Origin: a virus
Strand: one strand, 5' to 3'
DNA length: 64,000 nt
IMG/VR virus record: IMGVR_UViG_3300045988_182866
The notes beneath the pieces were generated by a model, which saw only the letters and a list, made by a program, of their open reading frames with translations, did not search any database and had not been told where the DNA came from. Within the stretch, counting starts at the first letter, position 1; each line of letters begins with the position of its first letter. Position numbers and translations under genes: made by a program. Below are positions 7,676 through 46,154 of the stretch, one piece after another.

Positions 7676-7779
7676 TATAATTCAATTATAACGTAAAATA
7701 TTCAAAATTGATCAAAAATTATTCAAATAATTTAATATTAATAACTTAAATTACACAATATTTATTTGATTTTAATATA

Positions 7780-9762: not shown

Positions 9763-10226
9763 CTGTTATTGATTTGAATTGCTTATTTGATTCAGCTTTA
9801 TTTGAAGCCAACAAGTATGCTTTAGACAATGACATTAAAAGTTCAAAAGATATTTCTACGCTTTTTAAACATTTTACCTTTACAAAATTTTTAGATGTTT
9901 GCCAAAATTTTACTACTAAAAATATTCTTCTCTATTTTGAAGATCAATCCGATTTGCCAAAGGATTATTTTCTTATTTTAAAACTCCTGAAAAATAAAAT
10001 TAAATTTCCAACCATCATTTCCAATATCTCTATTAATGAATATCTGGCAATCATTTCTGATGATTCTCCAGAATTTGATGAAGTAATGGCTGAAAATTAT
10101 AATTTTAGTTTTATAGATCATTTTACTGATTTTAAAAATTATCTTAAGAAGTCAGGTCTTCTTTTCCTTAACAAGAAGTACCAGAATTTGACTGAAGTTA
10201 TCGGTCTTCTAATAGCATGTAAATAA
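9732..10226 (+). CDS. Hypothetical protein
   Basis: ORF track. No motif recognised. Confidence 0.4.
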   Translation: MPIEFKIRNLTVIDLNCLFDSALFEANKYALDNDIKSSKDISTLFKHFTFTKFLDVCQNFTTKNILLYFEDQSDLPKDYFLILKLLKNKIKFPTIISNISINEYLAIISDDSPEFDEVMAENYNFSFIDHFTDFKNYLKKSGLLFLNKKYQNLTEVIGLLIACK

Positions 10227-15113: not shown

Positions 15114-15162
15114 ATTTTGTATTTAAAGACAATTCTCGTGATATAATGACTTTATAAAAGTT

Positions 15163-21428: not shown

Positions 21429-21543
21429 ATTCCACACTTAAACATTTTAAGAATATTTTAAAATAAAATGAAAGTATTTTAAATGGCAGCAAACTAAAGA
21501 TTTAATAAAGACTTATTTTAAAGGACTTTAAATATAGAAAATT

Positions 21544-28587: not shown

Positions 28588-29517
28588 TTGTCTATGATAA
28601 AAAGACAAAGAAGATTTTTAAACACTGAAATTTTTATAGAATTAGCAAAACAAATTCATGGAAGCAAATATGATTATTCAAAAGTCAGCTATAAAAATGC
28701 TAATACAAATGTTTTAATAATTTGTCCTATTCATGGTTTGTTCAGTCAAAATCCAAGATCTCACCTAAAAGGGTTTGGATGTGCAAAATGTTCAAATCGA
28801 ACAGCTAAGACTACTGAAGATTTTATCAAAGAATCAAAGCAGGTTCATGGAGACAAATATGATTATTCAGAAACAGTTTACGTCAATAATCACACAAATG
28901 TAAAAATCTTTTGCAAAAAAGATAAAATATTCTTTATACAAAATCCTAGAGTTCATCTTCAAGGAACGGGATGTCCCAAGTGTGCAAGAAATCAAAAGTT
29001 GACAACTAAGGGATTTATAGAAAGAGCTATAGCTATTCATGGTAACAAATATGATTATTCTTCAGTAGTTTATCAATCACATGCCAAAAAGATTATTATA
29101 ATTTGTCCTATCCATGGGCCTTTCGAGCAAAGAGCAAATGGTCATTTGAACGGCAAAGGCTGTTATAAATGTGCAAAGAGTTATAAGCGTTCAAGGGGAG
29201 AGATTGAACTTTGTAAATTTATTAAATCAATTTATTCCGGTCAAGTTTTGGAGAATGACAGAACAGTTATTAAGCCAAAAGAACTAGACATTTATCTTCC
29301 TGAATTAAAGTTGGCTCTTGAATATAATGGCGAATATTGGCATGATGAAACTAAGAAACGAAAACCGGGTTATCATAAAGAAAAGCAAAAAGCTTGTGAA
29401 AAGAAAGGCATTAAATTAATTGAGGTTTGGGATTCAGAATGGCATGCAGATAAAGATAGATTTAAAAATCTTATTCAAGAAGTAATAAATTCTATTCAAT
29501 CACCTTTAAAAATTTAG
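28588..29517 (+). CDS. Homing-endonuclease-like protein: three Zn-ribbon repeats + DUF559/Vsr-like nuclease domain (intact copy)
   Basis: Three units of ...HG.KYDYS.V.Y.....V.I.CP.HG.F.Q....HL.G.GC.KC, then ELDIYLPELKLALEYNGEYWH...GIKLIEVWDSEW (DUF559 pattern). Confidence 0.7.
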   Translation: MSMIKRQRRFLNTEIFIELAKQIHGSKYDYSKVSYKNANTNVLIICPIHGLFSQNPRSHLKGFGCAKCSNRTAKTTEDFIKESKQVHGDKYDYSETVYVNNHTNVKIFCKKDKIFFIQNPRVHLQGTGCPKCARNQKLTTKGFIERAIAIHGNKYDYSSVVYQSHAKKIIIICPIHGPFEQRANGHLNGKGCYKCAKSYKRSRGEIELCKFIKSIYSGQVLENDRTVIKPKELDIYLPELKLALEYNGEYWHDETKKRKPGYHKEKQKACEKKGIKLIEVWDSEWHADKDRFKNLIQEVINSIQSPLKI

Positions 29518-30206: not shown

Positions 30207-30995
30207 ATGAGAATTGCTTTTTTAGCCAGTTTAGCTATTTTTATAGTTTTGTATATCTATATTGTTTATATTCATGAAAACCTTAAAGATAAAAAAGAAA
30301 ATAAAGAATTCCTTAAGAAAAGAAATAAACTTTCTTACTGGATTAGAAATTGCCCAACATTTCTAAATCCTGAAAACTTTTTAGGAATGTTTAATAATAT
30401 TGATACTAATACCCTTAATCTTCAATATTTTCCTGAAGCAATTGGCCGATATAATTTTATTGACGAATATAAATTTACATTCAAGGAAATGAAAAATCTT
30501 ATCAATGATTTTATTCCTTGTTTAATTTATGAAAATATTAAAGGAGATGAAATTATAGTCATTCCTAATACTGACCCTAATGCTAATCCGGTTATTTTAT
30601 TTGATATTGTTCCCCGGACAAAATTTGAAGATTTAAACGATATTGGGTTTCTTCCTGAAACTTTTAGCAACTCTAAAACTTATACTATTAAAACTGACCA
30701 TGAAATAGACGCTATGGATTTTAGAGTTTTTGCAGAAAAGAGTTTTCAAACTTATAAAATAGGAGCTGCTTCTATCTTGGTTGATAGAGATAAACTTCAA
30801 GAAAAAGGTTTTAATGGTTATGGTGTAATTATTCTTTATCTTTCTGATAAAATGGCAAAAGAATGTATTGATAATGCTGAAAGGAATTGTTTAGGTTCTT
30901 GTATAGATAGACTTTACCGGGAAGGACGATTTAAGGGAATTGTAGCAACTTATGCAACATTTAATCCTAAAGAATATCACATAAATGAATATTGA
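30207..30995 (+). CDS. Hypothetical protein with an N-terminal transmembrane segment
   Basis: MRIAFLASLAIFIVLYIYIVYI hydrophobic stretch. Confidence 0.4.
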   Translation: MRIAFLASLAIFIVLYIYIVYIHENLKDKKENKEFLKKRNKLSYWIRNCPTFLNPENFLGMFNNIDTNTLNLQYFPEAIGRYNFIDEYKFTFKEMKNLINDFIPCLIYENIKGDEIIVIPNTDPNANPVILFDIVPRTKFEDLNDIGFLPETFSNSKTYTIKTDHEIDAMDFRVFAEKSFQTYKIGAASILVDRDKLQEKGFNGYGVIILYLSDKMAKECIDNAERNCLGSCIDRLYREGRFKGIVATYATFNPKEYHINEY

Positions 30996-31707
30996 ACACA
31001 CAATAAATGGTAATGTTTATCTTTGTGGAGATCTTCATAAAGATATAAATGGCATTTTTCAAAAAATTAAAGAACTTAATATTAGAGATTCCTATATTAT
31101 TATTCTAGGTGATTGCGAAATAGGATTTTATAAAGAAAAGCCGGCTAAATTTTATAATTATTTCTCTAAACAGCTTAAATTAAGAAATAATACCGTTTAT
31201 CTTATCCGAGGAAATCACGATAATCCGGAATATTGGCTAAATCCTATAAGATCTGAGGTAGAGGAAAAATGGCCAAATATTATTCATCTTAGAGATAATA
31301 GCCTTGTTTCTATTAACGATAAAATTTATTTTATTTGGGGCGGCGCCGTATCAATTGACCGGGCTATTTTGAAAGAAGGTAGTACTTGGTTTAGATCAGA
31401 AAGAACAACGCTTAATATTGCAAAACTTTTATTGTTTAAGGATATTAAAATTTTTGGAGTATTGGCACATACTGGTCCACGTCCAGATACTTTAGATGAT
31501 AAACAATTTAAAAGACGTTGTAAATTTGACAAAAGGTTAATTGATGATATTATGGAAGAACAATCAAATATTTGTCAAATTATTAATATGTTAAATCCCG
31601 AAGTCTGGTTTAACGGACATTATCATACTTCTTTTGAGAAGACCACAACCAATGGGACTAAAGTAACATGTCTTGATATTTTGGAAATAAGAAAACTTAT
31701 TGCTTAA
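30985..31707 (+). CDS. Calcineurin-like metallophosphoesterase (Ser/Thr phosphatase or nucleotide phosphoesterase-like)
   Basis: GDLH, GD..., LIRGNHD motifs. Confidence 0.6.
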   Translation: MNIEHTINGNVYLCGDLHKDINGIFQKIKELNIRDSYIIILGDCEIGFYKEKPAKFYNYFSKQLKLRNNTVYLIRGNHDNPEYWLNPIRSEVEEKWPNIIHLRDNSLVSINDKIYFIWGGAVSIDRAILKEGSTWFRSERTTLNIAKLLLFKDIKIFGVLAHTGPRPDTLDDKQFKRRCKFDKRLIDDIMEEQSNICQIINMLNPEVWFNGHYHTSFEKTTTNGTKVTCLDILEIRKLIA

Positions 31708-32507: not shown

Positions 32508-32510
32508 ATG

Positions 32511-32548
32511 AAATCCCATGGAGATCAATTCTCCATGGGATTTTTTAT
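32511..32548 (+). terminator. Rho-independent terminator
   Basis: ATCCCATGGAGA-tcaat-TCTCCATGGGAT followed by TTTTTTATTT. Confidence 0.75.
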
Positions 32549-32565
32549 TTTAAATAAAAGTCATA

Positions 32566-33411: not shown

Positions 33412-33432
33412 TTTTTTCATAATATAAACTTA

Positions 33433-33466
33433 AAACCCGGATAAGTTTTTCTTATCCGGGTTTTTA
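33433..33466 (+). terminator. Rho-independent terminator
   Basis: ACCCGGATAAG-ttttt-CTTATCCGGGT followed by TTTT. Confidence 0.75.
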
Positions 33467-33475
33467 TGTTATAAT

Positions 33476-34711
33476 ATGTTTATAATGTGTTTGTCAAAGC
33501 AAGTCAGAATTGCAGTTGTAGGACCACCAGATTCTGGTAAATCAACTTTCATTTCCAAAGCAGTAAAAATATTAACAGGGAGAACAGTTAATCCTGATGC
33601 CTTAATGAAAGAAGTTCATTATTCCGATGGTAAAGACATTTATGGAAATGACGATACTAGAACTATTAAATGTGCAAAAATCTTTTGCAATTATTTCGGG
33701 CTTGAAATTTGTTTTTATGATTGTCCCGGACATAAAGAATATATTGACCAAATTAAACAGGGAATAAATGCTGCTTCATTTGTAATTTTCATTAGTGATT
33801 ATAATAGAAAAGAGGAAAGTGAAAGATATTTTGAATTTATTAAGGAACTTCTTCCGAAAAATAAAATATTATATAAAATAAATTCTCATTATCCAGTCGA
33901 TAATAAAAATACAAGTCCTAATTGTTATAATTTCGATACTGAATTAGGTGAGGATAATTTTCGATCTATAATTTTTGATTTAATAAAAGAAATAAGAGAT
34001 AATGAATCTATAGAGCTTATTGATGTAGAGGCAGAAGCTATTTCTTTATTAAAGGAAAATATTGATTCAACAAAGCATAATGCTATTTTCTTTTCTGGAG
34101 GTAAAGATTCTTTAGTCGGACTTCATCTTATTAAACAAGCAGGATTAATTGATAATTTTTCTGTTTATGTTCCCTGGTCAGGATTTGATTTTCCGGAAGT
34201 AAATCATATAATCAATATCTATGAGCTTCTCTTTAAGAAAAAGTTTTTTAAATTTGATAATTCTTTAGGTCTAGACTATCAAAGAAATACTTCTTATGAA
34301 TTAATGGAAGCCAAAGCTTTAGCTAATGAAAAACTTATTAAAGAAAAGAATATTGATTTAGTTTCTATTCAATTCAGAGCTTCTGACGAAGGAGTAAGAA
34401 GTAAAGACCATTATATTGTTCAAAAAGAAAATCATACTAGATTTTCTCCTGTTTTTAATTTTACCGAAGAAAATATTTGGCGATATATTCAAAAATATAC
34501 TCTTCCTGTTTGCGAACTCTATTTTAAAGGTTACCGTAGTTTAGGAGATTCTTTTGTTACCGAACCATGTATGCCTCATTTTAAAACAGTAGAAGAAATA
34601 ATCAAATATATATATGAACACCCTCATACTTCTGAGCGAGATGGAAGAAAAGCACAAGATAATTCGGTTCCTTTTGCTATGGAACATTTGAGGGATAAAG
34701 GATTTTTTTGA
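33476..34711 (+). CDS. cysD: Fusion protein: N-terminal translation-factor-type GTPase G-domain (CysN-like) + C-terminal sulfate adenylyltransferase small subunit (CysD, PAPS-reductase-fold PP-loop ATPase)
   Basis: G1 VGPPDSGKST and G3 DCPGH. PP-loop FFSGGKDSLVGLHL. NFTEENIWRYIQKYTLPVCELY and YRSLGDSF resemble CysD [22 protein letters not shown] / RTLGCWPLT. C-terminus TSERDGRKAQDNSVPFAMEHLRDKGFF resembles CysD [26 protein letters not shown]. Confidence 0.7.
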   Translation: MFIMCLSKQVRIAVVGPPDSGKSTFISKAVKILTGRTVNPDALMKEVHYSDGKDIYGNDDTRTIKCAKIFCNYFGLEICFYDCPGHKEYIDQIKQGINAASFVIFISDYNRKEESERYFEFIKELLPKNKILYKINSHYPVDNKNTSPNCYNFDTELGEDNFRSIIFDLIKEIRDNESIELIDVEAEAISLLKENIDSTKHNAIFFSGGKDSLVGLHLIKQAGLIDNFSVYVPWSGFDFPEVNHIINIYELLFKKKFFKFDNSLGLDYQRNTSYELMEAKALANEKLIKEKNIDLVSIQFRASDEGVRSKDHYIVQKENHTRFSPVFNFTEENIWRYIQKYTLPVCELYFKGYRSLGDSFVTEPCMPHFKTVEEIIKYIYEHPHTSERDGRKAQDNSVPFAMEHLRDKGFF

Positions 34712-35157
34712 TGGATGAAGAAAAATTTAGAAAAATAAATCAATTTAATAAATGCTTTAAAGCTGAAGATTCACCTTCTATCCTTTGTATTTGTGGAGAA
34801 AGCGGATCTGGAAAATCGACATTGGCTAAAAAGATTCTTGAATATCGGGAATCTAATGGAAATATTCATCCGACAGTTGTTCTTGATGGAGATGGAGTAC
34901 GACATTTTGTTACCCATGATTTAGGATATTCTGACGAAGATCGAATAAAAAATAATGAAATAATTGCAGGAATTGCTTTTTTATTAGTCGTCCAGGGTTT
35001 TAATGTAATTATTTCTACTGTTCGGGCCAATGTCGCCTATAACATTCTAAGTCAATATTGGAATCATAATATTCATTGTTTTGTTTGTGACAAATACACC
35101 AGAGATACAGAAGAATATAAAGAAGCATATAATAATTTTATTAAAAATGAAATCTGA
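34708..35157 (+). CDS. cysC: Adenylyl-sulfate (APS) kinase, CysC-like (short form)
   Basis: ICGESGSGKSTLA, VVLDGDGVRH, DLGYSDEDRIKNNEIIAGIAFLL match the APS kinase motifs GLSGSGKST / LDGDNVRHGLN.DLGFS.EDR.ENIRR. Its start overlaps the upstream stop (ATGA). Confidence 0.7.
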   Translation: MMDEEKFRKINQFNKCFKAEDSPSILCICGESGSGKSTLAKKILEYRESNGNIHPTVVLDGDGVRHFVTHDLGYSDEDRIKNNEIIAGIAFLLVVQGFNVIISTVRANVAYNILSQYWNHNIHCFVCDKYTRDTEEYKEAYNNFIKNEI

Positions 35158-35980
35158 ATTAGTTCAAGGACCAATTAAATTTCCTATTGACATTGACCTG
35201 GAGAAAATGATTATAACTTCTCCAAATATGAATTTAGAAATAAAAATTTATCATGAAGATGAACAAGGATTTTATGTAGATTATCAAAATCAAGTTTACC
35301 GTTTAGAATATAATCCAATTTCCAAAAATTATTGGTTTATGTATTTGAACAAAACACCATTTATTAGAGGATGCTGGTTTGTTCGAGCTAATATTTGTCA
35401 TAAATTAAAATTTATTTCTTTTATTATCAGCAAAAATGGTTGTTCTTCTATTTTAAAAACTTCAATGGTTCATGACGGAACATATGATACTATTCAGGAT
35501 CATTCTTTTATCTGGAATAATCCGCAATATTGTTTCGAAAAGAATGTTATTCAAAATATAGCAAAATGCCATGCTTATCCTGACTATATTAAGTTTGTAG
35601 TTTTAGAAGATCCATTTAAAAGATTTCTAAGATGGCTGAATTGGTCCTGGAAAAACAAATATAACAAATACTATAATTTTAATTTATCAAAAGAGGATTT
35701 TATTAAAGAACATCTTTGGTCTCTTCCTTATATTACAAGAGAATTAGTTTGCTGCGATGAACATGTAATTCAACAGGAAAAATATTTTGAACATATCAGA
35801 AAAGAAGGATTTGAACCATTAGTTGTTCAATTATCTGATTTACCGATTTTCTTTAAAAATCAATTTGGAGTTGAGTTAATTAAAAATAATGTTTCTTCTC
35901 CTTCTGAACGTATTTTTACAAAGGAAGATTTTACTGAAGATCAACTAAAGGAAATTTATAAGTTTTTGAATATCAAATGA
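35147..35980 (+). CDS. Putative PAPS-dependent sulfotransferase (carbohydrate-sulfotransferase-like). Start taken at MKSELVQ; the ORF track offers an upstream ATG at 35081.
   Basis: 5'-PSB-like FIISKNGCSSILK (K.G.[ST][ST]). 3'-PB-like FVVLEDPFKRFLRWL (R/E-DP..R..S/R). It is in an operon with the PAPS-forming enzymes. The assignment is motif-level only. Confidence 0.45.
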   Translation: MKSELVQGPIKFPIDIDLEKMIITSPNMNLEIKIYHEDEQGFYVDYQNQVYRLEYNPISKNYWFMYLNKTPFIRGCWFVRANICHKLKFISFIISKNGCSSILKTSMVHDGTYDTIQDHSFIWNNPQYCFEKNVIQNIAKCHAYPDYIKFVVLEDPFKRFLRWLNWSWKNKYNKYYNFNLSKEDFIKEHLWSLPYITRELVCCDEHVIQQEKYFEHIRKEGFEPLVVQLSDLPIFFKNQFGVELIKNNVSSPSERIFTKEDFTEDQLKEIYKFLNIK

Positions 35981-36723
35981 AAAAGTTTTTTGTAAACATT
36001 TTTACATATAAAGAAGATGAAGAGATTGTAAAATACAGTGCTCTTTCAGCCAAATATGTATTAGGCGATGATGTTGAAGTAAATGTTATTGATGATAATA
36101 AACATCCCATTTCAGAAGAAAAGATTAAAGAATTAAATGAACTTGGCATTTTTTATCGTCAATCCACTTTTGACAGAAAACATAATTTAAACGGTAAAGA
36201 ATGTGTCGTTGGTATTTTAGAAGAAATAAAAAAATCTACTAAAGGGAGGGCCGGAGTATCAATTAAGCTTGATTCAGATACAATGATTGCACATCGGGAG
36301 ATATTTGATAAGTTTTATGATACTGAAAGCTGTATGTTTGCTGCTTCTCATCGGCCAGGCAGTATTTTTTCTGGAATATGCTATCTTATTAAAAATGATA
36401 TTTTAGATAAGATGATTAAAATGGCTAATGACTGTGATATTCATGAAACGTCAGCCCCCGAAGATATGACCATTGGATGCTTGGCAACTATTTGTTCTAT
36501 GCCTAATAGCATTTATATTATGCCTGAATGGAATCCCAATAAAAAAGAGGATGATGGACTTTGTACTGCCTGGAATTATGATTGTGATTTAAAATATATT
36601 GAAAAATATTATAAACTTTTCTTTATTGTTACATTTGGAAACTGGTTTACGGTCAAAGGCAATACCAAAGCTTGCCGAAATAAACCTATGGAGCTCTTCC
36701 TTGATCAAATCTTAAATATTTGA
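35977..36723 (+). CDS. Putative GT-A fold glycosyltransferase
   Basis: N-terminal beta-strand FVNIFTYKEDEE, NVIDDNKHP (DD motif), KLDSDT (DxD-like). Its start overlaps the upstream stop. Confidence 0.45.
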   Translation: MKKFFVNIFTYKEDEEIVKYSALSAKYVLGDDVEVNVIDDNKHPISEEKIKELNELGIFYRQSTFDRKHNLNGKECVVGILEEIKKSTKGRAGVSIKLDSDTMIAHREIFDKFYDTESCMFAASHRPGSIFSGICYLIKNDILDKMIKMANDCDIHETSAPEDMTIGCLATICSMPNSIYIMPEWNPNKKEDDGLCTAWNYDCDLKYIEKYYKLFFIVTFGNWFTVKGNTKACRNKPMELFLDQILNI

Positions 36724-39107
36724 ACATCATGCAAAAGTCCGGTATTAGTGACAAGACAGGGAAATCTTATATCAATGGAATTTCAGTAACAAACAGTACC
36801 ATAACTGTTACTGAAGCTACCTCTTTAAATTTCACCATTGGAGGACCAATTACTACTACTGTACAAGGAAGTGAAGAAGCATTAATTTCCTTCAATCTTG
36901 ATGCAGTAAAAAGCAGGGAAGCTTTAGGATTAGGTACTGCTGCTCTTATTAATACCGGTACAGCATCTGGACAAATTCCTGTTTTAGACGCCCGGGGTAA
37001 ATTACCTGAGTCTGTCATTGGAGATATTGCCCTATATGATAAGTTTGATATAGCTTCTGCTGATAATATAAATGATATTGTAATATTTATTAATGGCATT
37101 ACTACTGGAATTACTCCTAAACAAGGAGATATGATTTTTGTTCTAGGAGGAAATGTCCAAGGAACCTATTGGATTACAGTCACTAAAACTCCGGGAACTT
37201 ATACTGCGGATGATATTTCTGGAATTACTACACCGTCTGGAACCATTAGTTCTATTACCTTTTTAGGAACAAATTATACTCCTGTCAATGGTATTATTAC
37301 TCTCCCGGCAAATATTGGCTGGAGTTCTTTAACTGGAATTCCTGCAGCTTCTGTATCGGCTTCAGGTATTGTTAAATTAAATGATAATACAAATTCTACT
37401 TCTACTACTGAAGCAGCAACTGCAAATGCTGTTAAGAAAGTTCAAGATTTTGCTAGTACCAAAATTTCTGGTATTTGGTTCGAAACTAACCAAGGATTAA
37501 CTTCAGAACGAAATAGTTTTACTATATTTGGAACTGGCCCAATTTATATTGTAGGGAGTGATGCTGGAGATAAATCTCTTATATCAGTAAATTTAGATAC
37601 TGCAAGAGTTAAAGACTCTTTAAATATTCAATCTATCGCCCCAGCAGGACCTTATCCTCCGACTATTCCTGAAACCTACGGAACAGGAGCTGCGCCTGAA
37701 CTTTTAGGTAAACTTGATAGAAGCTTCATGCCAAGAAATATTATTGGTTTTACATCTTCTTCTAGTTTGCCGCCAGTAAATCCTCCGTCTGATTTTATTC
37801 AAGGTTTTGCTTTTACAGCACAGGATAATAATGGTGAGGAAACTCCTGGTTTTAGTGTTTCTGTTTTTGAAAAGTATTATTCAACTGGAGAAATATGGAA
37901 AGGTATTAATTATTTCCTCAATTCTTCTTTAACAGCAACATCCGGACCTGACCCAGTTATTCCAGCAACTGGGGCTGATGGTAAATTAGATGCTTCATTT
38001 ATTCCAGATAGTGTGAGCGGAGGAATTGGCATTGTTAATTCTAGTAATCCGGGTACAACACTAACTGCTAAAACTTTAAGAATCGGAGCACTAGACGGGT
38101 TAGGCGTATCTATTGCACCTCTTGGCCCGAATAGTTCAGAAATTAATGTTTTTTATGGATTAGAAGAAACTTCATTTAAATCTTATCTGACTAATACTAT
38201 TGGCATTAAAACTGCTGCTTATCAAAATACAGGAACTACAAATGGAACAATCCCTTTAATCGGTGCTAATGATAAATTACCAGCAAGTATTATTCCAGAT
38301 GAAATTGGCGGAAATTTTAGTTCCTTTACTATTAATAATGGATATGAAGCTACTCAAAGTATAAGCTCTAATCCTAATCAAATTAAAATTTGGAACTCTC
38401 CATTTTTTATTGGACCTCATGAAGCCACTGATTTAGTTAATGAATTATATCTTAATAATGAGGGTGAAGTTACTTTATCTCAGCGTTTTACTGATAGGGC
38501 CGCCCTTCGTTATATTACTTGTGTTGAAGATTCAGGTAATTATCGCTTTACTACATATTATTGTGGCCCCTTATTGATATTTGAATCATTTTCAGCTTAT
38601 ACTAAAGGACCATTTTTAAAGAATTCTACTAATTTTAATTATACTGGTACTCATCCCGGTGAACTAAGTAATAACGCTTATACTAAAATACAAATAGATC
38701 CTTATTTTGCTTTAGCAAGAAGTAATTATATTATAAATAATACAACTAGTGGAAGTTTAATTGATATTTATACAGATCTTTTAACTAGAAAATATTATTT
38801 TCGGCCAAGCTCATTATCTTCAACAAATACTCTTATCGTTAATCTTTATATTGATGAAATAACATTACAAAATTACCATATTGATAATACTCTTATTTTA
38901 GACCCCAGGAACCTTTCAGTTGCTCCTCAAAATATTCAAATATTATTGCCGAATGAAACTACAGGAAACTATAAGCTGTTTATAGACCAGGGCGATGTTG
39001 GGACATTAACGAATACTCATCTGTATAATATTAGTATTGGTATTATTCGACCAACGGAAAGTCCAGCTCTAATAATGGTAAAATATTCTCAGTTTGTACC
39101 AGTTTAA
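36720..39107 (+). CDS. Large tail fibre / receptor-binding protein (795 aa). The tracked start is TTG; an ATG lies at 36729.
   Basis: G/T/S-rich. Contains the phage tail-fibre repeat ASGIVKLNDNTNSTSTTEAATANAVKKVQDF and repeated IP..IGG / LDASFIP segments. Confidence 0.7.
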   Translation: MNIMQKSGISDKTGKSYINGISVTNSTITVTEATSLNFTIGGPITTTVQGSEEALISFNLDAVKSREALGLGTAALINTGTASGQIPVLDARGKLPESVIGDIALYDKFDIASADNINDIVIFINGITTGITPKQGDMIFVLGGNVQGTYWITVTKTPGTYTADDISGITTPSGTISSITFLGTNYTPVNGIITLPANIGWSSLTGIPAASVSASGIVKLNDNTNSTSTTEAATANAVKKVQDFASTKISGIWFETNQGLTSERNSFTIFGTGPIYIVGSDAGDKSLISVNLDTARVKDSLNIQSIAPAGPYPPTIPETYGTGAAPELLGKLDRSFMPRNIIGFTSSSSLPPVNPPSDFIQGFAFTAQDNNGEETPGFSVSVFEKYYSTGEIWKGINYFLNSSLTATSGPDPVIPATGADGKLDASFIPDSVSGGIGIVNSSNPGTTLTAKTLRIGALDGLGVSIAPLGPNSSEINVFYGLEETSFKSYLTNTIGIKTAAYQNTGTTNGTIPLIGANDKLPASIIPDEIGGNFSSFTINNGYEATQSISSNPNQIKIWNSPFFIGPHEATDLVNELYLNNEGEVTLSQRFTDRAALRYITCVEDSGNYRFTTYYCGPLLIFESFSAYTKGPFLKNSTNFNYTGTHPGELSNNAYTKIQIDPYFALARSNYIINNTTSGSLIDIYTDLLTRKYYFRPSSLSSTNTLIVNLYIDEITLQNYHIDNTLILDPRNLSVAPQNIQILLPNETTGNYKLFIDQGDVGTLTNTHLYNISIGIIRPTESPALIMVKYSQFVPV

Positions 39108-40185: not shown

Positions 40186-40290
40186 GAAAGATATTTAAGG
40201 AATGAAATTTAATTAAAAATCTTTGCAAAAAGCGCTAATCTTTTAAAAATTAGTTGTTCATACGTAAATAAGTTTAATTATTAATAAAGT

Positions 40291-41188: not shown

Positions 41189-42058
41189 ATGAAAATTCCC
41201 GAAAGTTTAAAGAATGTTTTATCGGAAGCCGATCTTGCCGATATTAAAAAAGAATTTGACAAGCAGGTTCAAATTCAAGTAGAATCTGCACTTCATCAAT
41301 ATGACGATGAAGCTGAAAAGCGAATTTTAGAACTCGTCAAGCAGATTGATGAAAACCATAAGGTAAAGTTGGTTAATCTTCTTAAGAAGAAAGACGCTAA
41401 AGATAAGGCTTTGCTTGAATCAATTAAAGCCAAATATACTGAAGCTCTTCGAACAGATGCTGAAAAGTTCAAAGCTTCCCTTGCCAAAAATATCGAACGA
41501 TTCATTGAATCTAAAATTGGCAATATTGTAGATTATTCTATTATCAAAGAGGCTGCCCTTAATAATACGGCCCGCATTGTTCTTGAAGGCCTTCGCACTC
41601 AGCTTGGCGTTGATTCCGCTTTAATGAAGGAATCTATTTCCGGCCCAATTCTTGAAGCTCGTGAAAAAATGACCAAAGCTCTTTCTTATATTAAAAAGCT
41701 TAAAGAAGAAAACCAGCGCCTTGAAGAATCTCTTTATAATTCCGAGGCTAATCTTTTGATTGAATCCAGGACTGCCAAGCTGCCGGAAGCTGAAGCCTCT
41801 CATATGAAACGCATGCTTCATGGCAAGGATATTAAGTTCATTAATGAAAATTTCAATTATATTTTAGATCTTTATAGGCAAGGTCAAGAAAAGAAACGTA
41901 CTGTTCTTAAGGAAGAAGCCCTGAAGGTACGAGATAAGAAAAAGCTTCCGACCGAACCCCGCCGTACAAAAGATCTAATGACAGAAAACTCTTCTAATAA
42001 CTCCGGTTTCTCTCTTATTGATGAAATTGCTGCCGAAATGGCGTCTTCTGATTATTAA
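41189..42058 (+). CDS. Prohead scaffolding protein, gp22-like coiled-coil protein
   Basis: Coiled-coil-rich, K/E/A/L-biased, 289 aa against 269 aa for T4 gp22. Located between the protease and MCP. Confidence 0.55.
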   Translation: MKIPESLKNVLSEADLADIKKEFDKQVQIQVESALHQYDDEAEKRILELVKQIDENHKVKLVNLLKKKDAKDKALLESIKAKYTEALRTDAEKFKASLAKNIERFIESKIGNIVDYSIIKEAALNNTARIVLEGLRTQLGVDSALMKESISGPILEAREKMTKALSYIKKLKEENQRLEESLYNSEANLLIESRTAKLPEAEASHMKRMLHGKDIKFINENFNYILDLYRQGQEKKRTVLKEEALKVRDKKKLPTEPRRTKDLMTENSSNNSGFSLIDEIAAEMASSDY

Positions 42059-42224
42059 GAGTTGCTTTAAAAACCTAAATATCAATTGTTATTAGAGTAT
42101 AACCAAAGAAATTAACTATACAATTTTCAAGCATCAGTTAATTTAATCTTACGGACAAGAATTCCGTCTCCTCAAAAATCGCTTGATATTCAAGCAAAAA
42201 CAAAGATAAATTAATATAATTTTT

Positions 42225-44135
42225 ATGAAAAAGACTCAACAAGTACAAACTCAGTCTGTTGGCGCTGCTGTTCAGCAGAACAAGCAGTTCTATCAGAACT
42301 GTGTGAATAAGTGGAAGAAGCTGCTCGTTTCTGAACACGTTGCTCCTATTGAAAATAAGCATACGCGTGCCGTTACAGCTGTTCTTCTTGAAAACCAGGC
42401 TAACGCCCTGATGGAAGATATGAACCCGAACAGCTCCAGCATTTGGGGTGCCAACGCCTCTTTTGGTGGTGCGATTACTCAAGGCGATACCTATGCGAAG
42501 GGCGACAATCGTTTACCGAAGATTCTTCTTCCGATGATTCGTCGTACGTTCCCGGAACTTATTTCCAATGAAGTTGTCGGTGTCCAGCCGATGTCCGGAC
42601 CTGTTTCCCTTGCGTTTGCTATTCGTTATCGCTATGACCAAGGGCCTCTTCATGAAGCTCGTTCTTCCGGTACGCTGACTAAGCCGCCTACGGCTGGACC
42701 TCAATACGGTGTGAATACTTTCCGTGCCGAAGATACTGCCAATCCTCCGGCTCCTGCGGATATGAAGCAGCTTGAAGCTACGGTTAAGTCCCCTGGAACT
42801 GAAATGGGTTATAACTACCTCGACACTTCCTTTACTGGTCGTCGTAACAACCTCTTTAACCGTACGATCAATAAAGAAACGGGTGCTCCTTATACCGATG
42901 CTGATATTGTAACCACTTGGAATGCTTCTGATGCTGGTGCTACCTATCGGATTAAGGCTGTTGCCGACCTTGTGATTATCTCCGGAGCTACTCCTGATGT
43001 TGAATTCACATTGTCCGACGGTACAACCAAGTATACAATTCTTGACCATGATGAAGGTAAGAAAGCGATTGCTGCTGCGAATGCTCTCTTTAAGGCTACC
43101 CACATTGCCGGTGGTAAGTTTACATTCTCTGATCAGGACCTCGGTACTGCCGCTCTCTTGGGTGACTATGAAGCTACTGGCCGTATTCCTCGTACGAAGT
43201 TTACCTTCGAGAAGAAAGCTGTTGAAGCTGGTACCCGCCGTATCGGTACCTCCTGGACGCTTGAACTCGAACAGGATATTCGTAACATGAACGGTATCGA
43301 CATCGAACAGGAAGTTACTTCCATGATGTCCTACGAACTTCAGGCCGAAATTGACCGTGAAATGATTGTTCGTATGCTCTATGCCGCTCTTTCTGCTAAT
43401 GAATATTCCTATTGGGATGGTTCTAAGGCTGATGCTCGTTGGATGGGTGAACGTGACCGCGCGTTTTATCAGTTCATCATTCAGATGGCTAACCGTATGG
43501 CTGTTCGTAACCGTCGTGGCCCAGCTAACTTCATTATCGCTACTCCGGATGTCTGCTCCTTATTGGAAACGCTTCCTCAGTATGCTATTATGGAAGTTAA
43601 CGGTACGATCTCTACGGATAGTTCCGGTATTGCTAAGGTTGGTACAATCGGTAATGGCCGATTCACTGTCTTCCGTGATACCCGTACGCCTGTTCAGAAT
43701 AATTCCTGGATGAATAATTCCTGGGATAATCAAGGACAGTATACCATTGGTGGAGAAGCTCGTACTCAGGGTATTCCGGACTTTGCTCTACTTGGCTATA
43801 AGGGTAGCGAATACTGGGACGCAGGCATTCTGTTTTGTCCGTACATCCCAATACTCCTGCAAAGGGTTGTGGATCCTGTGTCGTTTGAACCTCAGGTTGG
43901 TTTAATGACCCGATATGGTGTTGTTGATAACCTTTTTGGCGCCAATCTCTATTATCATGTCGTATTAATCGATACGCTCGGAAATAGCTTGCCGCCGTCT
44001 GGCGCTCCTGCCAATAACTGGCCTGGAACATTCCCGAATGGTTCCGCTCTTACTGATGTTCGTCAGCAAGGTGGTTATCCGGTTCAGGTTACCAACACTC
44101 CTGAAAATCCGGTTAATACGAAGCCTATTGCTTAA
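42225..44135 (+). CDS. Major capsid protein, T4 gp23 homologue
   Basis: NKWKKLL...ENQ...FPELISNEVVGVQPMSGPVSLAFAIRYRY aligns with T4 gp23 NKWKPLL...ENQ...IPNLIAFDICGVQPMNSPTGQVFALRAVY. 636 aa. GC content is much higher than the surrounding DNA. Confidence 0.85.
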   Translation: MKKTQQVQTQSVGAAVQQNKQFYQNCVNKWKKLLVSEHVAPIENKHTRAVTAVLLENQANALMEDMNPNSSSIWGANASFGGAITQGDTYAKGDNRLPKILLPMIRRTFPELISNEVVGVQPMSGPVSLAFAIRYRYDQGPLHEARSSGTLTKPPTAGPQYGVNTFRAEDTANPPAPADMKQLEATVKSPGTEMGYNYLDTSFTGRRNNLFNRTINKETGAPYTDADIVTTWNASDAGATYRIKAVADLVIISGATPDVEFTLSDGTTKYTILDHDEGKKAIAAANALFKATHIAGGKFTFSDQDLGTAALLGDYEATGRIPRTKFTFEKKAVEAGTRRIGTSWTLELEQDIRNMNGIDIEQEVTSMMSYELQAEIDREMIVRMLYAALSANEYSYWDGSKADARWMGERDRAFYQFIIQMANRMAVRNRRGPANFIIATPDVCSLLETLPQYAIMEVNGTISTDSSGIAKVGTIGNGRFTVFRDTRTPVQNNSWMNNSWDNQGQYTIGGEARTQGIPDFALLGYKGSEYWDAGILFCPYIPILLQRVVDPVSFEPQVGLMTRYGVVDNLFGANLYYHVVLIDTLGNSLPPSGAPANNWPGTFPNGSALTDVRQQGGYPVQVTNTPENPVNTKPIA

Positions 44136-44276: not shown

Positions 44277-45254
44277 ATGCCAAAGAAGCTTTCGCAAGAA
44301 GAATTTATTGAACGATGTAAAAAGAAACATAATAATTATTACAGTTATGATAAAACAGTTTATACTGGTATGAGCAATGATGACTATATTATTGTAACTT
44401 GCCCTATTCATGGTGACTTTAAACAACTGGCTGCCGGACATATACGAGGAAAAGGCTGTAAAGATTGTGCCGGAACCATTACCAAAACTACTGAACAATT
44501 TATCATAGACGCCAGAAAAGTTCATGGAGATGAATATGATTATTCAAAATCAAAATATATTAATGCAATGACATATATTGAAATCATTTGTCGAAAACAT
44601 GGTTCATTCTGGCAAAAACCTAATACTCATTTAATCGGCAAAGGATGTTTTGAATGTTATGGCTCTAAAATGCTAACACAGGAAGAGTTTATCAATCGCT
44701 GTATTGAAAAACATAATGGGTTTTATATCTATGACAAAACAGTTTATACAGGTTGTAATTATACAATTACCATTACTTGTCCTGTCCATGGCGATTTTCA
44801 ACAAAAAGCAGGAGCCCATTTATATGGGCAAGGATGCAGTCAATGTGCTCATTTAATTTCTACTCAAGAGCTTGAACTTAGAGAATTTCTCGGAACAATT
44901 TATGAAAATGAAATGATTTTTAATTCAAGAGCTTTTATTAAGCCCAAAGAATTAGACATTTACCTTCCTGATATAAAAACTGCCTTTGAATATAATGGGA
45001 ATTATTGGCATGCTCTATATGAAGAAAATGATCCAGGGTACCATGACTATAAAAGGCAACTTTGTAAAAATGCCGGAATTACTTTAATTGAAGTATGGGG
45101 AAATGACTGGACTGAATTTAATAAAGAAACCAAAAATGAAATTAAAGATTTTTTCTCAGCAAAAAGGTTAAAAGAGTATAAGCATATACAGATAAGCAAT
45201 GCCGAAGAAGCAAACATTAGAAGAATTTATCAAGAAATCAAATATTGCCCATAA
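44277..45254 (+). CDS. Homing-endonuclease-like protein: three Zn-ribbon repeats + DUF559 nuclease domain. Start taken at MPKKLSQ; the tracked ORF begins at 44169 inside the terminator.
   Basis: Repeats ...IIVTCPIHGDF.Q.A.GHIRGKGCKDC.. etc. ELDIYLPDIKTAFEYNGNYWH...GITLIEVWGNDW. Confidence 0.7.
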   Translation: MPKKLSQEEFIERCKKKHNNYYSYDKTVYTGMSNDDYIIVTCPIHGDFKQLAAGHIRGKGCKDCAGTITKTTEQFIIDARKVHGDEYDYSKSKYINAMTYIEIICRKHGSFWQKPNTHLIGKGCFECYGSKMLTQEEFINRCIEKHNGFYIYDKTVYTGCNYTITITCPVHGDFQQKAGAHLYGQGCSQCAHLISTQELELREFLGTIYENEMIFNSRAFIKPKELDIYLPDIKTAFEYNGNYWHALYEENDPGYHDYKRQLCKNAGITLIEVWGNDWTEFNKETKNEIKDFFSAKRLKEYKHIQISNAEEANIRRIYQEIKYCP

Positions 45255-45849
45255 TTTCAAGTACAACTATGATAAATCAATTTATATCAACAAACAAACA
45301 AAAGTAATCGTAATATGCCCGGAACATGGAGATTTTGAGGTTACTCCAGGCGCTCATTATATTTTAAAAAGCGGATGTCCAGAATGTGCAAAAATATCTC
45401 GTTCCAAAACAAAATCAAAAGGATTAGAAAAGTTCATTAAACAAGCTAATCTAAAGTGGAATAGCTTTTATAATTATTCCAAAGTCAACTATATCAATAA
45501 TTATACTAAAGTAGAAATTATTTGTCCAATTCATGGTTCATTTTTTAAAGATCCTAGATCTCATATTGACCCACAAAGATATGGAGGCTGCCAAAGCTGT
45601 TCAAAAGAAAGACTTAGCAAAATAATATCTAAAGTTCAGCAGCAAAAACCAAAAGGGACAAATAGAGAAGCTTTTATTGACTATTGTAATGGCATTCATA
45701 ATAACAAATATTCTTATGATAAAATGAATTATGTGAATATGATGACTCCAATTGAAATCATATGTCCTATTCATGGAACTTTTACTCAAGATTGTTTCTT
45801 TAGACCAGAAAAAATAGATATACAAAAGAAACTCTTGAATTTTGCTTAA
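45199..45849 (+). CDS. Homing-endonuclease-like paralogue lacking a nuclease domain, with a degenerate last repeat. It overlaps the previous gene by 56 nt in another frame.
   Basis: MPKKQTLEEFIKKS... N-terminus parallels MPKKLSQEEFIERC of the neighbour. Repeats VIVICPEHGDF..TPGAHYILKSGCPEC and EIICPIHGSF...H.....GGCQSC. The third repeat (IICPIHGTFTQDCFFRP) has lost the CxxC. Confidence 0.55.
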   Translation: MPKKQTLEEFIKKSNIAHNFKYNYDKSIYINKQTKVIVICPEHGDFEVTPGAHYILKSGCPECAKISRSKTKSKGLEKFIKQANLKWNSFYNYSKVNYINNYTKVEIICPIHGSFFKDPRSHIDPQRYGGCQSCSKERLSKIISKVQQQKPKGTNREAFIDYCNGIHNNKYSYDKMNYVNMMTPIEIICPIHGTFTQDCFFRPEKIDIQKKLLNFA

Positions 45850-46100: not shown

Positions 46101-46154
46101 TTTTAAGCGCAGTCTAATCATCTGCCTATCTAAAGTAATTTAAATATTCATATT

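What the first reader, a model, noticed from the sequence alone, without database searches (positions are those of the whole stretch)
33476..39107. Phage-encoded PAPS-synthesis plus sulfotransferase plus glycosyltransferase cassette directly upstream of a tail-fibre gene
Four translationally coupled genes encode what looks like a complete sulfation pathway. Their stops and starts overlap at 34708/34711, 35147/35157, 35977/35980 and 36720/36723. Gene 1 is a fusion of a CysN-like GTPase G-domain and CysD ATP sulfurylase. Gene 2 is CysC APS kinase. Gene 3 carries sulfotransferase 5'-PSB and 3'-PB-like motifs. Gene 4 is a GT-A glycosyltransferase with DD and DxD-like motifs. They run straight into a 795-aa tail fibre. 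The features entries list the specific motifs. The CysN-before-CysD fusion order is unusual, and a whole sulfate-activation route in a virulent T4-like phage is, to my knowledge, not a described module. Candidate substrates are the phage's own fibre glycans, the host surface polysaccharide or LPS (a receptor-modifying lysogenic-conversion-like function), or conceivably a hypermodified DNA base. An alternative is that the CysC-like kinase phosphorylates a non-sulfate nucleotide, as CysC homologues do in phosphoramidate (MeOPN) capsule pathways.
Basis: partly seen in the sequence, partly recalled or inferred. Interest (0 to 1): 0.85.

Follow-up and report, generated by a model that had tools for sequence, protein, structure and literature searches.

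The report
Gut-phage sulfate-activation and sulfotransferase cassette
A common T4-like phage of the human gut carries a compact gene block that looks able to activate sulfate and attach it to a sugar; such blocks are known in bacteria, but I found no description of one in a phage, and here the enzymes are unusually stripped down.

Summary
Window 33476-36723 carries four tightly packed + strand genes, followed by a tail-fibre gene.

- **g1:** an EF-Tu/CysN-type G domain fused in front of a minimal CysD-type ATP-sulfurylase domain.
- **g2:** an APS-kinase core that lacks most of the lid and the C-terminal part.
- **g3:** a Sulfotransfer_2-type sulfotransferase, supported by family-level Pfam hits, motifs and fold.
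- **g4:** a GT-A glycosyltransferase with a DxD motif, whose fold is closest to GT31 enzymes.

The fusion defines a family of about 94 protein clusters, all metagenomic. It sits on T4-like and other large phage contigs. No fused copy turned up in one genome per bacterial or archaeal species.

Across 11 phage lineages a sulfotransferase lies next to the fusion in 10, and a mini-kinase lies nearby in 9. The glycosyltransferase partner and the genomic site vary (tail fibre, nrdD/nrdG, DNA polymerase).

PAPS-dependent sulfation of a carbohydrate acceptor is therefore the best reading. Sulfur assimilation and a phosphoramidate pathway are not supported.

Three things stay open: whether the lid-less kinase works, which nucleotide the G domain uses (no NKxD motif), and what is sulfated. 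The link to the tail fibre is not conserved.

Verdict: a real feature and a new variant of a known kind.

The parts
33432..33464 (+). 14-bp G+C-rich hairpin followed by T-run, a terminator-like site that closes the upstream gene and marks the 5' border of the cassette. GTTATAAT follows at 33468-33475.
33476..34711 (+). g1: fusion protein, 411 aa from ATG 33476 or, more likely, 408 aa from ATG 33485. It joins an N-terminal G domain to a C-terminal CysD-type ATP-sulfurylase domain.
33476..33991 (+). g1 G domain (aa 1-172). G1 is GPPDSGKS, the switch-I region carries DTRTI, and G3 is DCPGH. There is no NKxD (YSHS-type in the family), and CysN domains II and III are absent.
34010..34711 (+). g1 CysD-like domain (aa 179-411). 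It has the PP-loop FSGGKDS, RASDEGVRSKD, SPVFNFTEENIW, GYRSLGD and the CysD-type tail ERDGRK.QD...MEHLRDKGFF. Two insertions of canonical CysD are missing.
34711..35157 (+). g2: mini APS-kinase-like protein, 148 aa from ATG 34711. It keeps the P-loop GESGSGKST, LDGDGVR, LGYSDEDR..N and IISTVRA. Only a vestigial lid remains (TRDTEEYKEAYNNF), and strand beta5 and the C-terminal helix are absent.
35147..35980 (+). g3: Sulfotransfer_2-type sulfotransferase, 277 aa. A beta-rich N-terminal domain (aa ~15-93) precedes the sulfotransferase core, which has ISKNGCSSI (5'-PSB), LEDPFKRFLRWLN (3'-PB region) and DEHVIQQ.
35977..36723 (+). g4: GT-A fold glycosyltransferase, 248 aa. It has VIDD, the invariant KLDSDT (DxD) and APEDMTIGC. 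Its closest folds are GT31 enzymes.
36711..36718 (+). CTTAAATA, a copy of the YTTAAATA motif that precedes structural genes in this window. It lies 11 nt before the fibre ATG, inside the 3' end of g4.
36729..39107 (+). g5: tail-fibre protein, 792 aa from ATG 36729 (795 aa from TTG 36720). It is a neighbour of the cassette, not shown to be its substrate.

Best explanation
g1-g4 form a phage-borne sulfation module.

1. The CysD-type domain of g1 adenylylates sulfate to APS. This unfavourable step is driven by nucleotide hydrolysis in the fused EF-Tu/CysN-type G domain, as in bacterial CysDN, but with a single polypeptide, swapped domain order and no CysN domains II and III.
2. g2, an APS-kinase core, converts APS to PAPS. 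It may do so alone, in complex with g1, or with help from the host CysC.
3. g3, a carbohydrate-type (Sulfotransfer_2) sulfotransferase, moves the sulfo group from PAPS to a sugar.
4. g4, a soluble GT-A glycosyltransferase, adds or extends that sugar.

Neither g3 nor g4 shows an obvious hydrophobic N-terminal segment on reading the sequence (no predictor was run). The acceptor is therefore probably met in the cytoplasm of the infected cell: a phage protein glycan, or a lipid-linked precursor of a host surface polysaccharide.

Shown here: the domain identities, the motifs, the folds of g3 and g4, and the gene co-occurrence. Inferred: every catalytic activity, the division of labour, and the acceptor.
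For: **g1**
- CysD is the best NCBIfam model: 82 bits against 42 for CysH.
- The PP-loop, the RxxDE motif and the CysD-specific C-terminal tail are nearly invariant across 90 family members.
- The tail aligns to CysD of 1zun_A.
- The G-domain profile hits eRF3, EF-1alpha, EF-Tu and CysN 1zun_B.
- A distant phage lineage (L012) has the unfused order cysD, G-domain-only gene, kinase, with a Sulfotransfer_2 gene upstream.

**g2**
- APS_kinase 58 bits against a cut-off of 21. The best solved relatives are all APS kinases.
- The P-loop, LDGD and the Arg/aromatic/Arg APS contacts named in PMC4373884 are kept.

**g3**
- 23 of 44 family members hit PF03567, best E 1e-11.
- The model is good (pLDDT 88.9).
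- Its top BFVD matches are viral 'sulfotransferase family' proteins.

**g4**

**Co-occurrence**
- A sulfotransferase lies next to the fusion in 10 of 11 lineages, and a mini-kinase nearby in 9 of 11.
- L011 has a GT92-sulfotransferase fusion protein.

**Precedent**
- Bacteroides has PAPS-synthesis genes beside the sulfotransferase BT_0416 (PMC9417993).
Against: - No activity was measured.
- g1 and g2 score far below the curated NCBIfam cut-offs: 82 against 195 bits, and 62 against 139 bits.
- g2 has no equivalent of the lid lysine (Lys562 in M. tuberculosis CysC) and lacks the C-terminal ATP-adenine contacts. The sister mini-kinases (112-129 aa) have no lid at all, and lid closure is reported as essential for APS kinase.
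- The G domain has no NKxD, so GTP use is unproven.
- Two lineages show no kinase within the flanks (L001, L065), and one shows no sulfotransferase (L004).
- The acceptor is unknown.
Confidence: 0.6

Rival explanations
1. Auxiliary metabolic genes for sulfur assimilation. The phage boosts host APS/PAPS supply for cysteine and methionine synthesis during infection, which is how viral cysD, cysN and cysC have been read in virome surveys.
For: Kieft et al. list cysD, cysN, cysC and cysH as viral metabolic genes and note that human-associated samples hold most viral cysD. g1 and g2 match exactly these families.
Against: - No cysH or sulfite-reductase partner is seen in the cassette or in any related locus.
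- Instead, a sulfotransferase sits next to the fusion in 10 of 11 lineages, often with glycosyltransferases.
- A sulfotransferase consumes PAPS without yielding reduced sulfur.
Confidence: 0.08
2. Modification of phage DNA. The sugar-adding and sulfate-adding enzymes act on a hypermodified base, as T4-like phages glucosylate hydroxymethylcytosine.
For: The block lies beside DNA polymerase B genes in L063 and L066. T-even phages are known to glycosylate their DNA (established knowledge). Only the fusion and the sulfotransferase are near-constant, while the glycosyltransferase varies.
Against: - g3 belongs to a carbohydrate-type sulfotransferase family.
- Among the 33 window proteins scanned, none matched a thymidylate-synthase-like base hydroxymethylase or a base-kinase family. 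About half of the window's ORFs of 110 aa or more were scanned.
- No sulfated DNA base is known.
- In the window and in L001 the block lies among structural, adhesin or nrd genes.
Confidence: 0.08
3. A non-sulfate pathway. The CysC-like kinase phosphorylates another nucleotide (as Cj1415 does in the Campylobacter O-methyl phosphoramidate route), g4 is a nucleotidyltransferase, and g1 adenylylates some other anion or substrate.
For: - g1 and g2 are too divergent to pass equivalog cut-offs.
- The kinase active site is remodelled.
Against: - The CysD-specific tail and motifs are conserved.
- The residues that contact the APS phosphosulfate in M. tuberculosis CysC (Arg483 and Arg497 equivalents) are kept.
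- A PAPS-type sulfotransferase is the constant neighbour.
- No glutamine kinase, amidohydrolase or NTP_transf_3 homologue was found.
- g4 has DxD and lacks the glycine-rich N-terminal loop of nucleotidyltransferases (the loop criterion is from my own knowledge).
Confidence: 0.05
4. A decaying or partly inactive module. The kinase is a relic, and the cassette works only through host CysC, or not at all.
For: The lid and C-terminus are lost in all mini-kinases. L063's kinase-like ORF has a degenerate P-loop and DGE in place of DGD. The kinase is absent from the flanks of L001 and L065.
Against: - The mini-kinase core stays 41-53% identical to g2 in four lineages whose fusion proteins are themselves about 45-52% identical to g1 (L004, L008, L009, L066), and 32% in L010, whose fusion is 39% identical. 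P-loop, LDGD and ISTVRAD are invariant among these.
- Intact ORFs are seen in hundreds of metagenomes.
- The truncation point is the same in independent lineages, which suggests a selected minimal form.
Confidence: 0.15

Closest known systems
Bacterial CysD/CysN ATP sulfurylase with CysC: E. coli CysDNC, the M. tuberculosis sulfate-activating complex CysD + CysNC, and rhizobial NodP/NodQ
   Same: It has a PP-loop CysD catalytic domain with the CysD-type C-terminal tail, paired with an EF-Tu-family G domain, and an APS-kinase core encoded alongside (PMC4373884).
   Different: - One polypeptide, with the G domain in front of CysD.
- CysN domains II and III are missing.
- NKxD is replaced.
- The CysD domain lacks two insertions.
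- The kinase has no functional-looking lid or C-terminus.
- Scores are far below the curated family cut-offs.
Bacteroides PAPS-synthesis cluster BT_0411-0415 next to the sulfotransferase BT_0416
   Same: Both are from the gut and share the same gene logic: sulfate activation genes placed beside the sulfotransferase that uses the PAPS (PMC9417993).
   Different: The Bacteroides cluster is chromosomal, has full-size separate enzymes and a sterol acceptor. The one here is phage-borne and miniaturised, has a Sulfotransfer_2-type enzyme, and is paired with glycosyltransferases.
Viral cysD/cysN/cysC/cysH 'auxiliary metabolic genes'
   Same: The same families have been catalogued on viral contigs, with cysD mostly in human-associated samples (10.1101/2021.01.05.425418).
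   Different: Those were read as sulfur assimilation. That paper does not contain the word sulfotransferase (0 occurrences), and the passages I read mention neither a G-domain fusion nor truncated kinases.
Sulfotransferase-family proteins annotated in cultured viruses: Synechococcus phages ACG-2014f and S-T4, Prochlorococcus phage P-SSM7, Ralstonia phage phiRSL1, and giant viruses
   Same: They share the fold and family label (Foldseek probability 0.97-1.0). Several are T4-like phages.
   Different: Sequence identity is 10-18%. I did not examine their neighbourhoods, so I cannot say whether any carries its own sulfate activation genes.
GT31 glycosyltransferases (B3GalT5/6, chondroitin synthase CHSY/CHPF, Fringe, C1GalT1)
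   Different: g4 has no Pfam hit to Galactosyl_T or Fringe. It is a soluble 248-aa protein, and its donor and acceptor are unknown.

Membership tests
CysD (sulfate adenylyltransferase subunit 2) | PP-loop SGGKDS-type ATP pyrophosphatase motif | tested here: met
   FSGGKDS. S207, G209, K210, D211 and S212 are invariant in 46 family members.
CysD (sulfate adenylyltransferase subunit 2) | CysD-specific C-terminal tail (...ER.GR..D....ME..K..G[YF]F), which CysH lacks | tested here: met
   TSERDGRKAQDNSVPFAMEHLRDKGFF aligns to the tail of 1zun_A and of 19 annotated CysD proteins. It is nearly invariant in the family.
CysD (sulfate adenylyltransferase subunit 2) | Score above the curated family cut-off | tested here: not met
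   NF003587 gives 82.3 bits against a cut-off of 195, and TIGR02039 gives 58 against 397. CysD is still the best model, ahead of CysH at 42 bits.
CysD (sulfate adenylyltransferase subunit 2) | Full-length architecture of about 300 aa | tested here: not met
   Two insertions of canonical CysD, about 28 and about 32 residues, are absent.
CysD (sulfate adenylyltransferase subunit 2) | APS formation from ATP and sulfate | not testable with these tools
   This needs an enzyme assay.
CysN (GTPase subunit of ATP sulfurylase) | G1 P-loop and G3 DxPGH of the EF-Tu/EF-1alpha/CysN group | tested here: met
   GPPDSGKS and DCPGH are invariant in the family. The profile hits eRF3, EF-1alpha, EF-Tu and CysN 1zun_B at 1.3e-5.
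CysN (GTPase subunit of ATP sulfurylase) | G4 NKxD guanine-specificity motif | tested here: not met
   The aligned position reads YSHS or INSH, and no NKxD is conserved.
CysN (GTPase subunit of ATP sulfurylase) | Beta-barrel domains II and III | tested here: not met
   The G domain ends near aa 172 and runs directly into the CysD domain. The unfused L012 homologue is only 246 aa.
CysN (GTPase subunit of ATP sulfurylase) | Specific relationship to CysN rather than to translation factors | tested here: inconclusive
   No CysN-specific model was reported, and EF-G/EF-Tu models score best. Gene order in L012 (cysD, then the G-domain gene) argues for a CysN origin.
APS kinase (CysC, PF01583) | P-loop, LDGD motif, and the Arg/aromatic/Arg contacts to APS | tested here: met
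   GESGSGKST, VLDGDGVR, LGYSDEDR and IIST are present. Residue roles are taken from PMC4373884. Pfam gives 58.2 bits against a cut-off of 21.1.
APS kinase (CysC, PF01583) | Lid region with its Arg, Lys and Phe (552-581 in M. tuberculosis CysC), reported as essential | tested here: not met
   g2 keeps only TRDTEEYKEAYNNF, with no Lys562 equivalent. The mini-kinases of L004, L008, L009, L010 and L066 end before the lid.
APS kinase (CysC, PF01583) | Fifth strand and C-terminal ATP-adenine contacts | tested here: not met
   The protein ends at aa 148/149. The Pfam match covers profile positions 3-82 of 152. TIGR00455 gives 62 bits against a cut-off of 139.
Sulfotransfer_2 (PF03567) PAPS-dependent sulfotransferases | Family HMM match | tested here: inconclusive
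   g3 itself scores 18.9 bits against a cut-off of 22. However, 23 of 44 relatives match (best E 1e-11), and the cassette partners in L012 and L064 match outright.
Sulfotransfer_2 (PF03567) PAPS-dependent sulfotransferases | 5'-phosphosulfate-binding loop (K/R-x-G/A-x-S/T-S/T) and 3'-phosphate-binding Arg region | tested here: met
   g3 has ISKNGCSSI and DPFKRF. R159 is conserved in at least 90% of the family. Motif definitions are from my own knowledge.
Sulfotransfer_2 (PF03567) PAPS-dependent sulfotransferases | Sulfotransferase fold | tested here: met
GT-A glycosyltransferases (GT31-like) | GT-A Rossmann-like fold with a DxD motif | tested here: met
GT-A glycosyltransferases (GT31-like) | Sequence-family membership (Galactosyl_T or Fringe HMM) | tested here: not met
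   There is no Pfam, NCBIfam, PHROG or PDB sequence hit.
O-methyl phosphoramidate (MeOPN) pathway | Glutamine kinase, gamma-glutamyl hydrolase and phosphoramidate cytidylyltransferase partners | tested here: not met
   None of the four proteins or their neighbours matches such families. The pathway composition is from my own knowledge.
MeOPN pathway | The kinase groups with cytidine diphosphoramidate kinases in a tree | not tested
T4-like phage | gp20 portal, gp23 capsid, gp21 protease, gp15, gp13 and gp4 homologues | tested here: met
   Hits: Portal_T4 4e-85, T4-gp15_tss, Peptidase_S77 and Gp23 on L006, and a head-closure PHROG at 2e-43. The capsid protein is at most 31% identical to cultured phages.

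The most novel reading that the evidence does not exclude
The phage builds a sulfated, glycosaminoglycan-like or mucin-like glycan on its own virion (fibre or head) in the cytoplasm, using a self-contained minimal PAPS factory. In that factory the G-domain-CysD fusion and the lid-less kinase would form one channelling complex. The sulfated coat would serve as bait for the glycan-binding outer-membrane proteins of a Bacteroidota host, or as an anchor in gut mucus.

What is compatible with this reading:
- The GT31-like and CHST-like enzyme pair.
- The lack of Shine-Dalgarno sites.
- TAG recoding in a sister lineage.
- The BspA-type LRR and PA14 neighbours.

None of these tests it.
Probability: 0.12. 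Interest if true: 0.9.

Novelty: new variant of a known kind. Interest (0 to 1): 0.68.

Why it matters
If the cassette works as read, abundant gut phages carry their own sulfate-activating machinery to sulfate a glycan, not to feed sulfur assimilation.

- **Virome surveys:** it would change how viral 'cysD' hits in human viromes are interpreted.
- **Phage biology:** it would add sulfation to the short list of phage-directed glycan modifications.
- **Enzymology:** it would offer the smallest known versions of the ATP sulfurylase/G-protein pair and of APS kinase. These are useful for asking what the missing CysN domains and the kinase lid are really needed for.
- **Gut ecology:** sulfated glycans are central to mucus and to Bacteroides nutrition, so the acceptor could bear on phage-host-mucus interactions.

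Tried and rejected
- **Cultured phages:** DNA search of the cassette found no match. Protein searches of g1 and g3 found only unrelated PAPS-reductase-like genes for g1 and nothing for g3.
- **First IMG/VR scan:** the single g1 sequence found nothing. An alignment-based scan was needed.
- **Solved structures by sequence:** g3 and g4 gave nothing useful.
- **Bacterial 'full-length' matches:** the genome-contig hits at residues 6-411 looked like bacterial fusions. They turned out to be separate cysD and cysN genes in the usual order.
- **T4 late promoter:** TATAAATA is not enriched (6 copies against 15 expected), so I dropped it. A related motif, YTTAAATA, does mark structural genes.
- **GTTATAAT before g1:** it is not enriched in the window (7 against 6), so it says nothing about timing.
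- **Radical SAM gene in L001:** I rejected it as part of the cassette. It sits downstream of the nrdD genes in that locus, and the window has the same Radical_SAM/Fer4_12 pair right after its own nrdD, so it is probably NrdG.
- **Small ORFs after the mini-kinases:** they are not the missing lid. They are hydrophobic and unrelated.
- **AlphaFold database fold library:** it was not available.

Full report
**What is in the sequence.** The window carries, on the + strand, ORFs at 33476-34711 (g1), 34708/34711-35157 (g2), 35147-35980 (g3), 35977-36723 (g4) and 36720/36729-39107 (g5). The junctions read TGATG (g1/g2), an 11-nt overlap (g2/g3) and ATGA (g3/g4). g4 ends at 36723, 5 nt before the likely fibre start at ATG 36729. 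That start and the g1 start at 33485 are the ones called in two 99% identical metagenome scaffolds (L006, L007). A 14-bp hairpin with a T-run lies at 33432-33464, directly before g1. No comparable terminator-like site lies inside g1-g4; only weak 5-7-bp stems lie inside g5.

**Genomic setting.** Around the cassette are homologues of T4 gp15, gp20 portal, gp13, gp4, gp21 protease, scaffold and gp23 capsid. There is also an anaerobic ribonucleotide reductase with an intein, and its activase. The capsid protein is at most 31% identical to any cultured phage, and the cassette DNA matches no deposited phage. The g1 protein cluster has 567 members. One exact variant is on 172 contigs, and many contigs are about 200 kb long. 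The scaffold names point to human faecal metagenomes (this is my inference from the names). This is a common, uncultured, roughly 200-kb T4-like gut phage.

**g1.**
- Pfam finds GTP_EFTU (aa 10-110) and PAPS_reduct (aa 203-363).
- Among curated bacterial models, CysD is best (82 bits) and CysH second (42 bits). Both are far below the cut-offs.
- In an alignment of 90 family members, these motifs are nearly invariant: the PP-loop FSGGKDS, YRASDEGVRSKD, SPVFyFSE.NIW, GYRSLGD and the tail ERDGRk.QD.s..fMEkLRn.GFF.
- The tail is the CysD signature. It aligns to the end of the solved CysD 1zun_A and of 19 annotated CysD proteins.
- Two insertions of canonical CysD are missing.
- The G domain keeps G1 (G.PD.GKS), a DTRTI switch-I segment and G3 (DcPGH.EY). 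Where EF-1alpha has NKMD, the family has YSHS.
- A profile of the G domain finds eRF3, EF-1alpha, EF-Tu and CysN (1zun_B, 1.3e-5).
- CysN domains II and III are absent.

**Origin of the fusion.** One genome per species of bacteria and archaea gave no fused homologue. The hits that seemed to span the whole query are separate cysD and cysN genes in the usual order. A distant phage lineage in IMG/VR (L012-L014) has, in order, a Sulfotransfer_2 gene, an unfused compact cysD, a 246-aa G-domain-only gene, and a 154-aa APS kinase that still has ERDVKGLYKKG in its lid. This supports a CysN origin for the G domain. It also suggests stepwise miniaturisation followed by fusion in swapped order.

**g2.**
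- It matches APS_kinase above the Pfam cut-off, but only over the first half of the profile. Its best solved relatives are all APS kinases.
- I took residue roles from the M. tuberculosis CysC structure paper (PMC4373884). By that standard g2 keeps the P-loop, LDGD, the two arginines and the aromatic residue that hold APS, and the I-S backbone contacts.
- Only a vestige of the lid remains (TRDTEEYKEAYNNF). It has no equivalent of Lys562, and the fifth strand and C-terminal adenine contacts are missing.
- The homologues in L004, L008, L009, L010 and L066 are 112-129 aa and stop right after the fourth strand. The ORFs that follow them are small hydrophobic proteins, not a split lid.
- The core is 41-53% identical to g2 in L004, L008, L009 and L066, and 32% in L010. 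That is similar to the divergence of the fusion proteins in those lineages (39-52% identical to g1), so the truncated form looks maintained by selection rather than decaying.
- Whether it phosphorylates APS is open, since that paper reports lid closure as essential.

**g3.**
- On its own it is just below the Sulfotransfer_2 threshold.
- An exhaustive search found 53 relatives. Of 44 aligned, 23 match PF03567, the best at 1e-11.
- The alignment shows IPKNGCSSI-type, RDP..RF-type and D.H..PQ-type motifs, with R159, H206 and Q210 nearly invariant.
- The AlphaFold model is confident (pLDDT 88.9).
- Its best matches among predicted viral structures are proteins labelled sulfotransferase family in T4-like cyanophages, phiRSL1 and giant viruses.

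**g4.**
- It has no sequence-family hit and only four distinct relatives, plus one in L001.
- The invariant KLDSDT supplies the DxD motif, and APEDMTIGC resembles the GT31 ED...G motif (the motif comparison is from my own knowledge).
- The N-terminus has no glycine-rich nucleotidyltransferase loop.

**Co-occurrence.** I built HMMs of the four families and searched every fetched locus. I also used the gene tables.

| Lineage | Fusion | Kinase | Sulfotransferase | Glycosyltransferase or other partner |
|---|---|---|---|---|
| Window type | yes | yes | yes | GT31-like |
| L001 | yes | none in flanks | yes | GT31-like |
| L004 | yes | yes | not detected | 792-aa multi-domain glycosyltransferase |
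| L008/L011 | yes | yes | fused to GT92 | further GT92; ORF that by eye resembles a CMP-sugar synthetase (no Pfam hit) |
| L009 | yes | yes | two copies | three glycosyltransferases |
| L010 | yes | yes | yes | none noted |
| L012 | unfused cysD + G-domain gene | yes | yes | none noted |
| L063 | yes | yes | yes | none noted |
| L064 | yes | yes | yes | GT2 |
| L065 | yes | none in flanks | yes | none noted |
| L066 | yes | 6 kb away | yes | none noted |

A sulfotransferase therefore accompanies the sulfurylase in 10 of 11 lineages, and a kinase in 9 of 11. No cysH or sulfite reductase was seen. This is the strongest argument that the module makes a sulfate ester rather than reduced sulfur.

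**Where the block sits.** In the window it lies before a tail fibre. In L001 it lies with PA14 and LRR genes, downstream of nrdD and before a radical SAM gene that is probably the nrdG activase. In L063 and L066 it lies next to DNA polymerase B. In the window, the fibre gene has a CTTAAATA motif 11 nt before its ATG. The YTTAAATA motif is depleted overall (13 copies against 39 expected), yet it precedes many structural genes. g1-g4 lack it and follow a terminator-like hairpin. The tail-fibre adjacency is therefore not conserved and may not reflect co-regulation, so I do not take the fibre as the likely substrate on that ground.

**Mechanism and rivals.** The most likely mechanism runs as follows:
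1. NTP-driven APS synthesis by g1.
2. 3'-phosphorylation by g2, possibly with help from g1 or from host CysC.
3. Sulfo-transfer by g3 to a sugar placed by g4.

All of this would happen in the cytoplasm. The acceptor is either a phage protein glycan or a lipid-linked precursor of a host surface polysaccharide. I put 0.6 on PAPS-dependent (or APS-dependent) glycan sulfation overall.

The rivals, with the reasons against each:
- **Sulfur-assimilation metabolic genes** (the published reading of viral cysD): contradicted by the partners.
- **DNA hypermodification:** not excluded, but no base-modifying partner was seen among the proteins scanned.
- **A phosphoramidate-type route:** the partner enzymes are absent and the CysD signature is present.
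- **A partly inactive module** that depends on host CysC.

**Comparison with what is known.** The enzyme logic is that of bacterial CysDN/CysC feeding a sulfotransferase. Examples are NodPQ-NodH and RaxPQ-RaxST (from my own knowledge) and the Bacteroides BT_0411-0416 cluster (PMC9417993). Six of the seven full-text searches looked for a phage-encoded sulfate-activation plus sulfotransferase cassette, a G-domain-CysD fusion or lid-less APS kinases, and none found one. The library does not cover most subscription journals, so this is not proof of absence.

**Verdict.** This is a real feature. It is a new variant of a known kind: a phage-borne, miniaturised and rearranged version of the bacterial sulfate-activation plus sulfotransferase logic. 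Interest 0.68.

Noticed in passing
window, all 56 gene starts examined: None of 56 genes has GGAG or GAGG at -18 to -4 (random positions: 4.6%). The upstream regions are A/T-rich. Lack of Shine-Dalgarno sites is typical of Bacteroidota and their phages, which hints at the host.
   Followed up: partly
window 15120-15127(-), 21527-21534, 27366-27373, 32549-32556, 36711-36718, 40192-40199(-), 46139-46146: YTTAAATA is three-fold depleted in the window (13 copies against 39 expected). Even so, most copies lie 7-17 nt before start codons of structural genes. It may be a late-promoter-like signal related to T4's TATAAATA, with very short leaders.
   Followed up: partly
window 42001-44000 (capsid gene 42225-44135): The major capsid gene has 45% G+C, against about 30% in the rest of the window.
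   Followed up: no
window 49796-52669 and 52928-53641: The anaerobic ribonucleotide reductase NrdD is interrupted by an intein (Intein_splicing, aa 393-670). A radical SAM activase-like gene follows it.
   Followed up: no
L064 8001-9200 (also 6458-7900, 9200-10221): The fusion gene has five in-frame TAG codons, two of them (aa 6 and 386) at positions where the family has a conserved Gln. Neighbouring genes have in-frame stops too. This lineage appears to read TAG as glutamine. The sulfotransferase gene of L063 is likewise broken by stops.
   Followed up: partly
L011 6544-8025: A single 493-aa protein joins a GT92-like glycosyltransferase half to a Sulfotransfer_2-like half. It sits directly upstream of the fusion gene. 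A second GT92-like gene and an ORF that by eye resembles a CMP-sugar synthetase (no Pfam hit) lie downstream.
   Followed up: partly
L004 11520-11762; L008 2374-2664; L064 10215-10463: A small hydrophobic ORF of 80-96 aa follows the mini-kinase in L004 and L008, where the two copies resemble each other. An 82-aa ORF holds the same position in L064, but its sequence was not read. It may be a membrane partner (a sulfate uptake helper?) or may be unrelated.
   Followed up: no
L001 3508-12717: In this 169-225 kb relative, the sulfotransferase-fusion-GT31 block and PA14/LRR genes sit downstream of the nrdD genes and are followed by a radical SAM gene that is probably its activase. The block therefore moves between genome sites like a moron.
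   Followed up: partly
window 30985-31707; L004 14233-14949: A Metallophos phosphoesterase of about 240 aa lies within a few kb of the cassette in two lineages. Whether it removes the PAP by-product is pure speculation.
   Followed up: no
window 3661-4773(-), 1796-2977(-), 45199-45849, 28588-29517: Several likely selfish elements are scattered through the phage genome: a TnpB/Cas12f-like gene, several DUF723 or zinc-ribbon proteins, and an REase-like protein.
   Followed up: no
L009 9239-11132: A resolvase and an SSO2105-like gene on the opposite strand are inserted between the fusion gene and its kinase, splitting the cassette in that lineage.
   Followed up: no
L010 11985-14297: A 770-aa protein has an RNA polymerase Rpb1 domain 5 and a faint Hint (intein) hit. 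So the fusion family also occurs in phages that seem to encode a multisubunit-type RNA polymerase.
   Followed up: no
window 32510-32544: A second strong hairpin (15 bp) follows the tail-fibre-assembly-like gene. Each of the two genes before the cassette therefore ends in its own terminator-like site.
   Followed up: no
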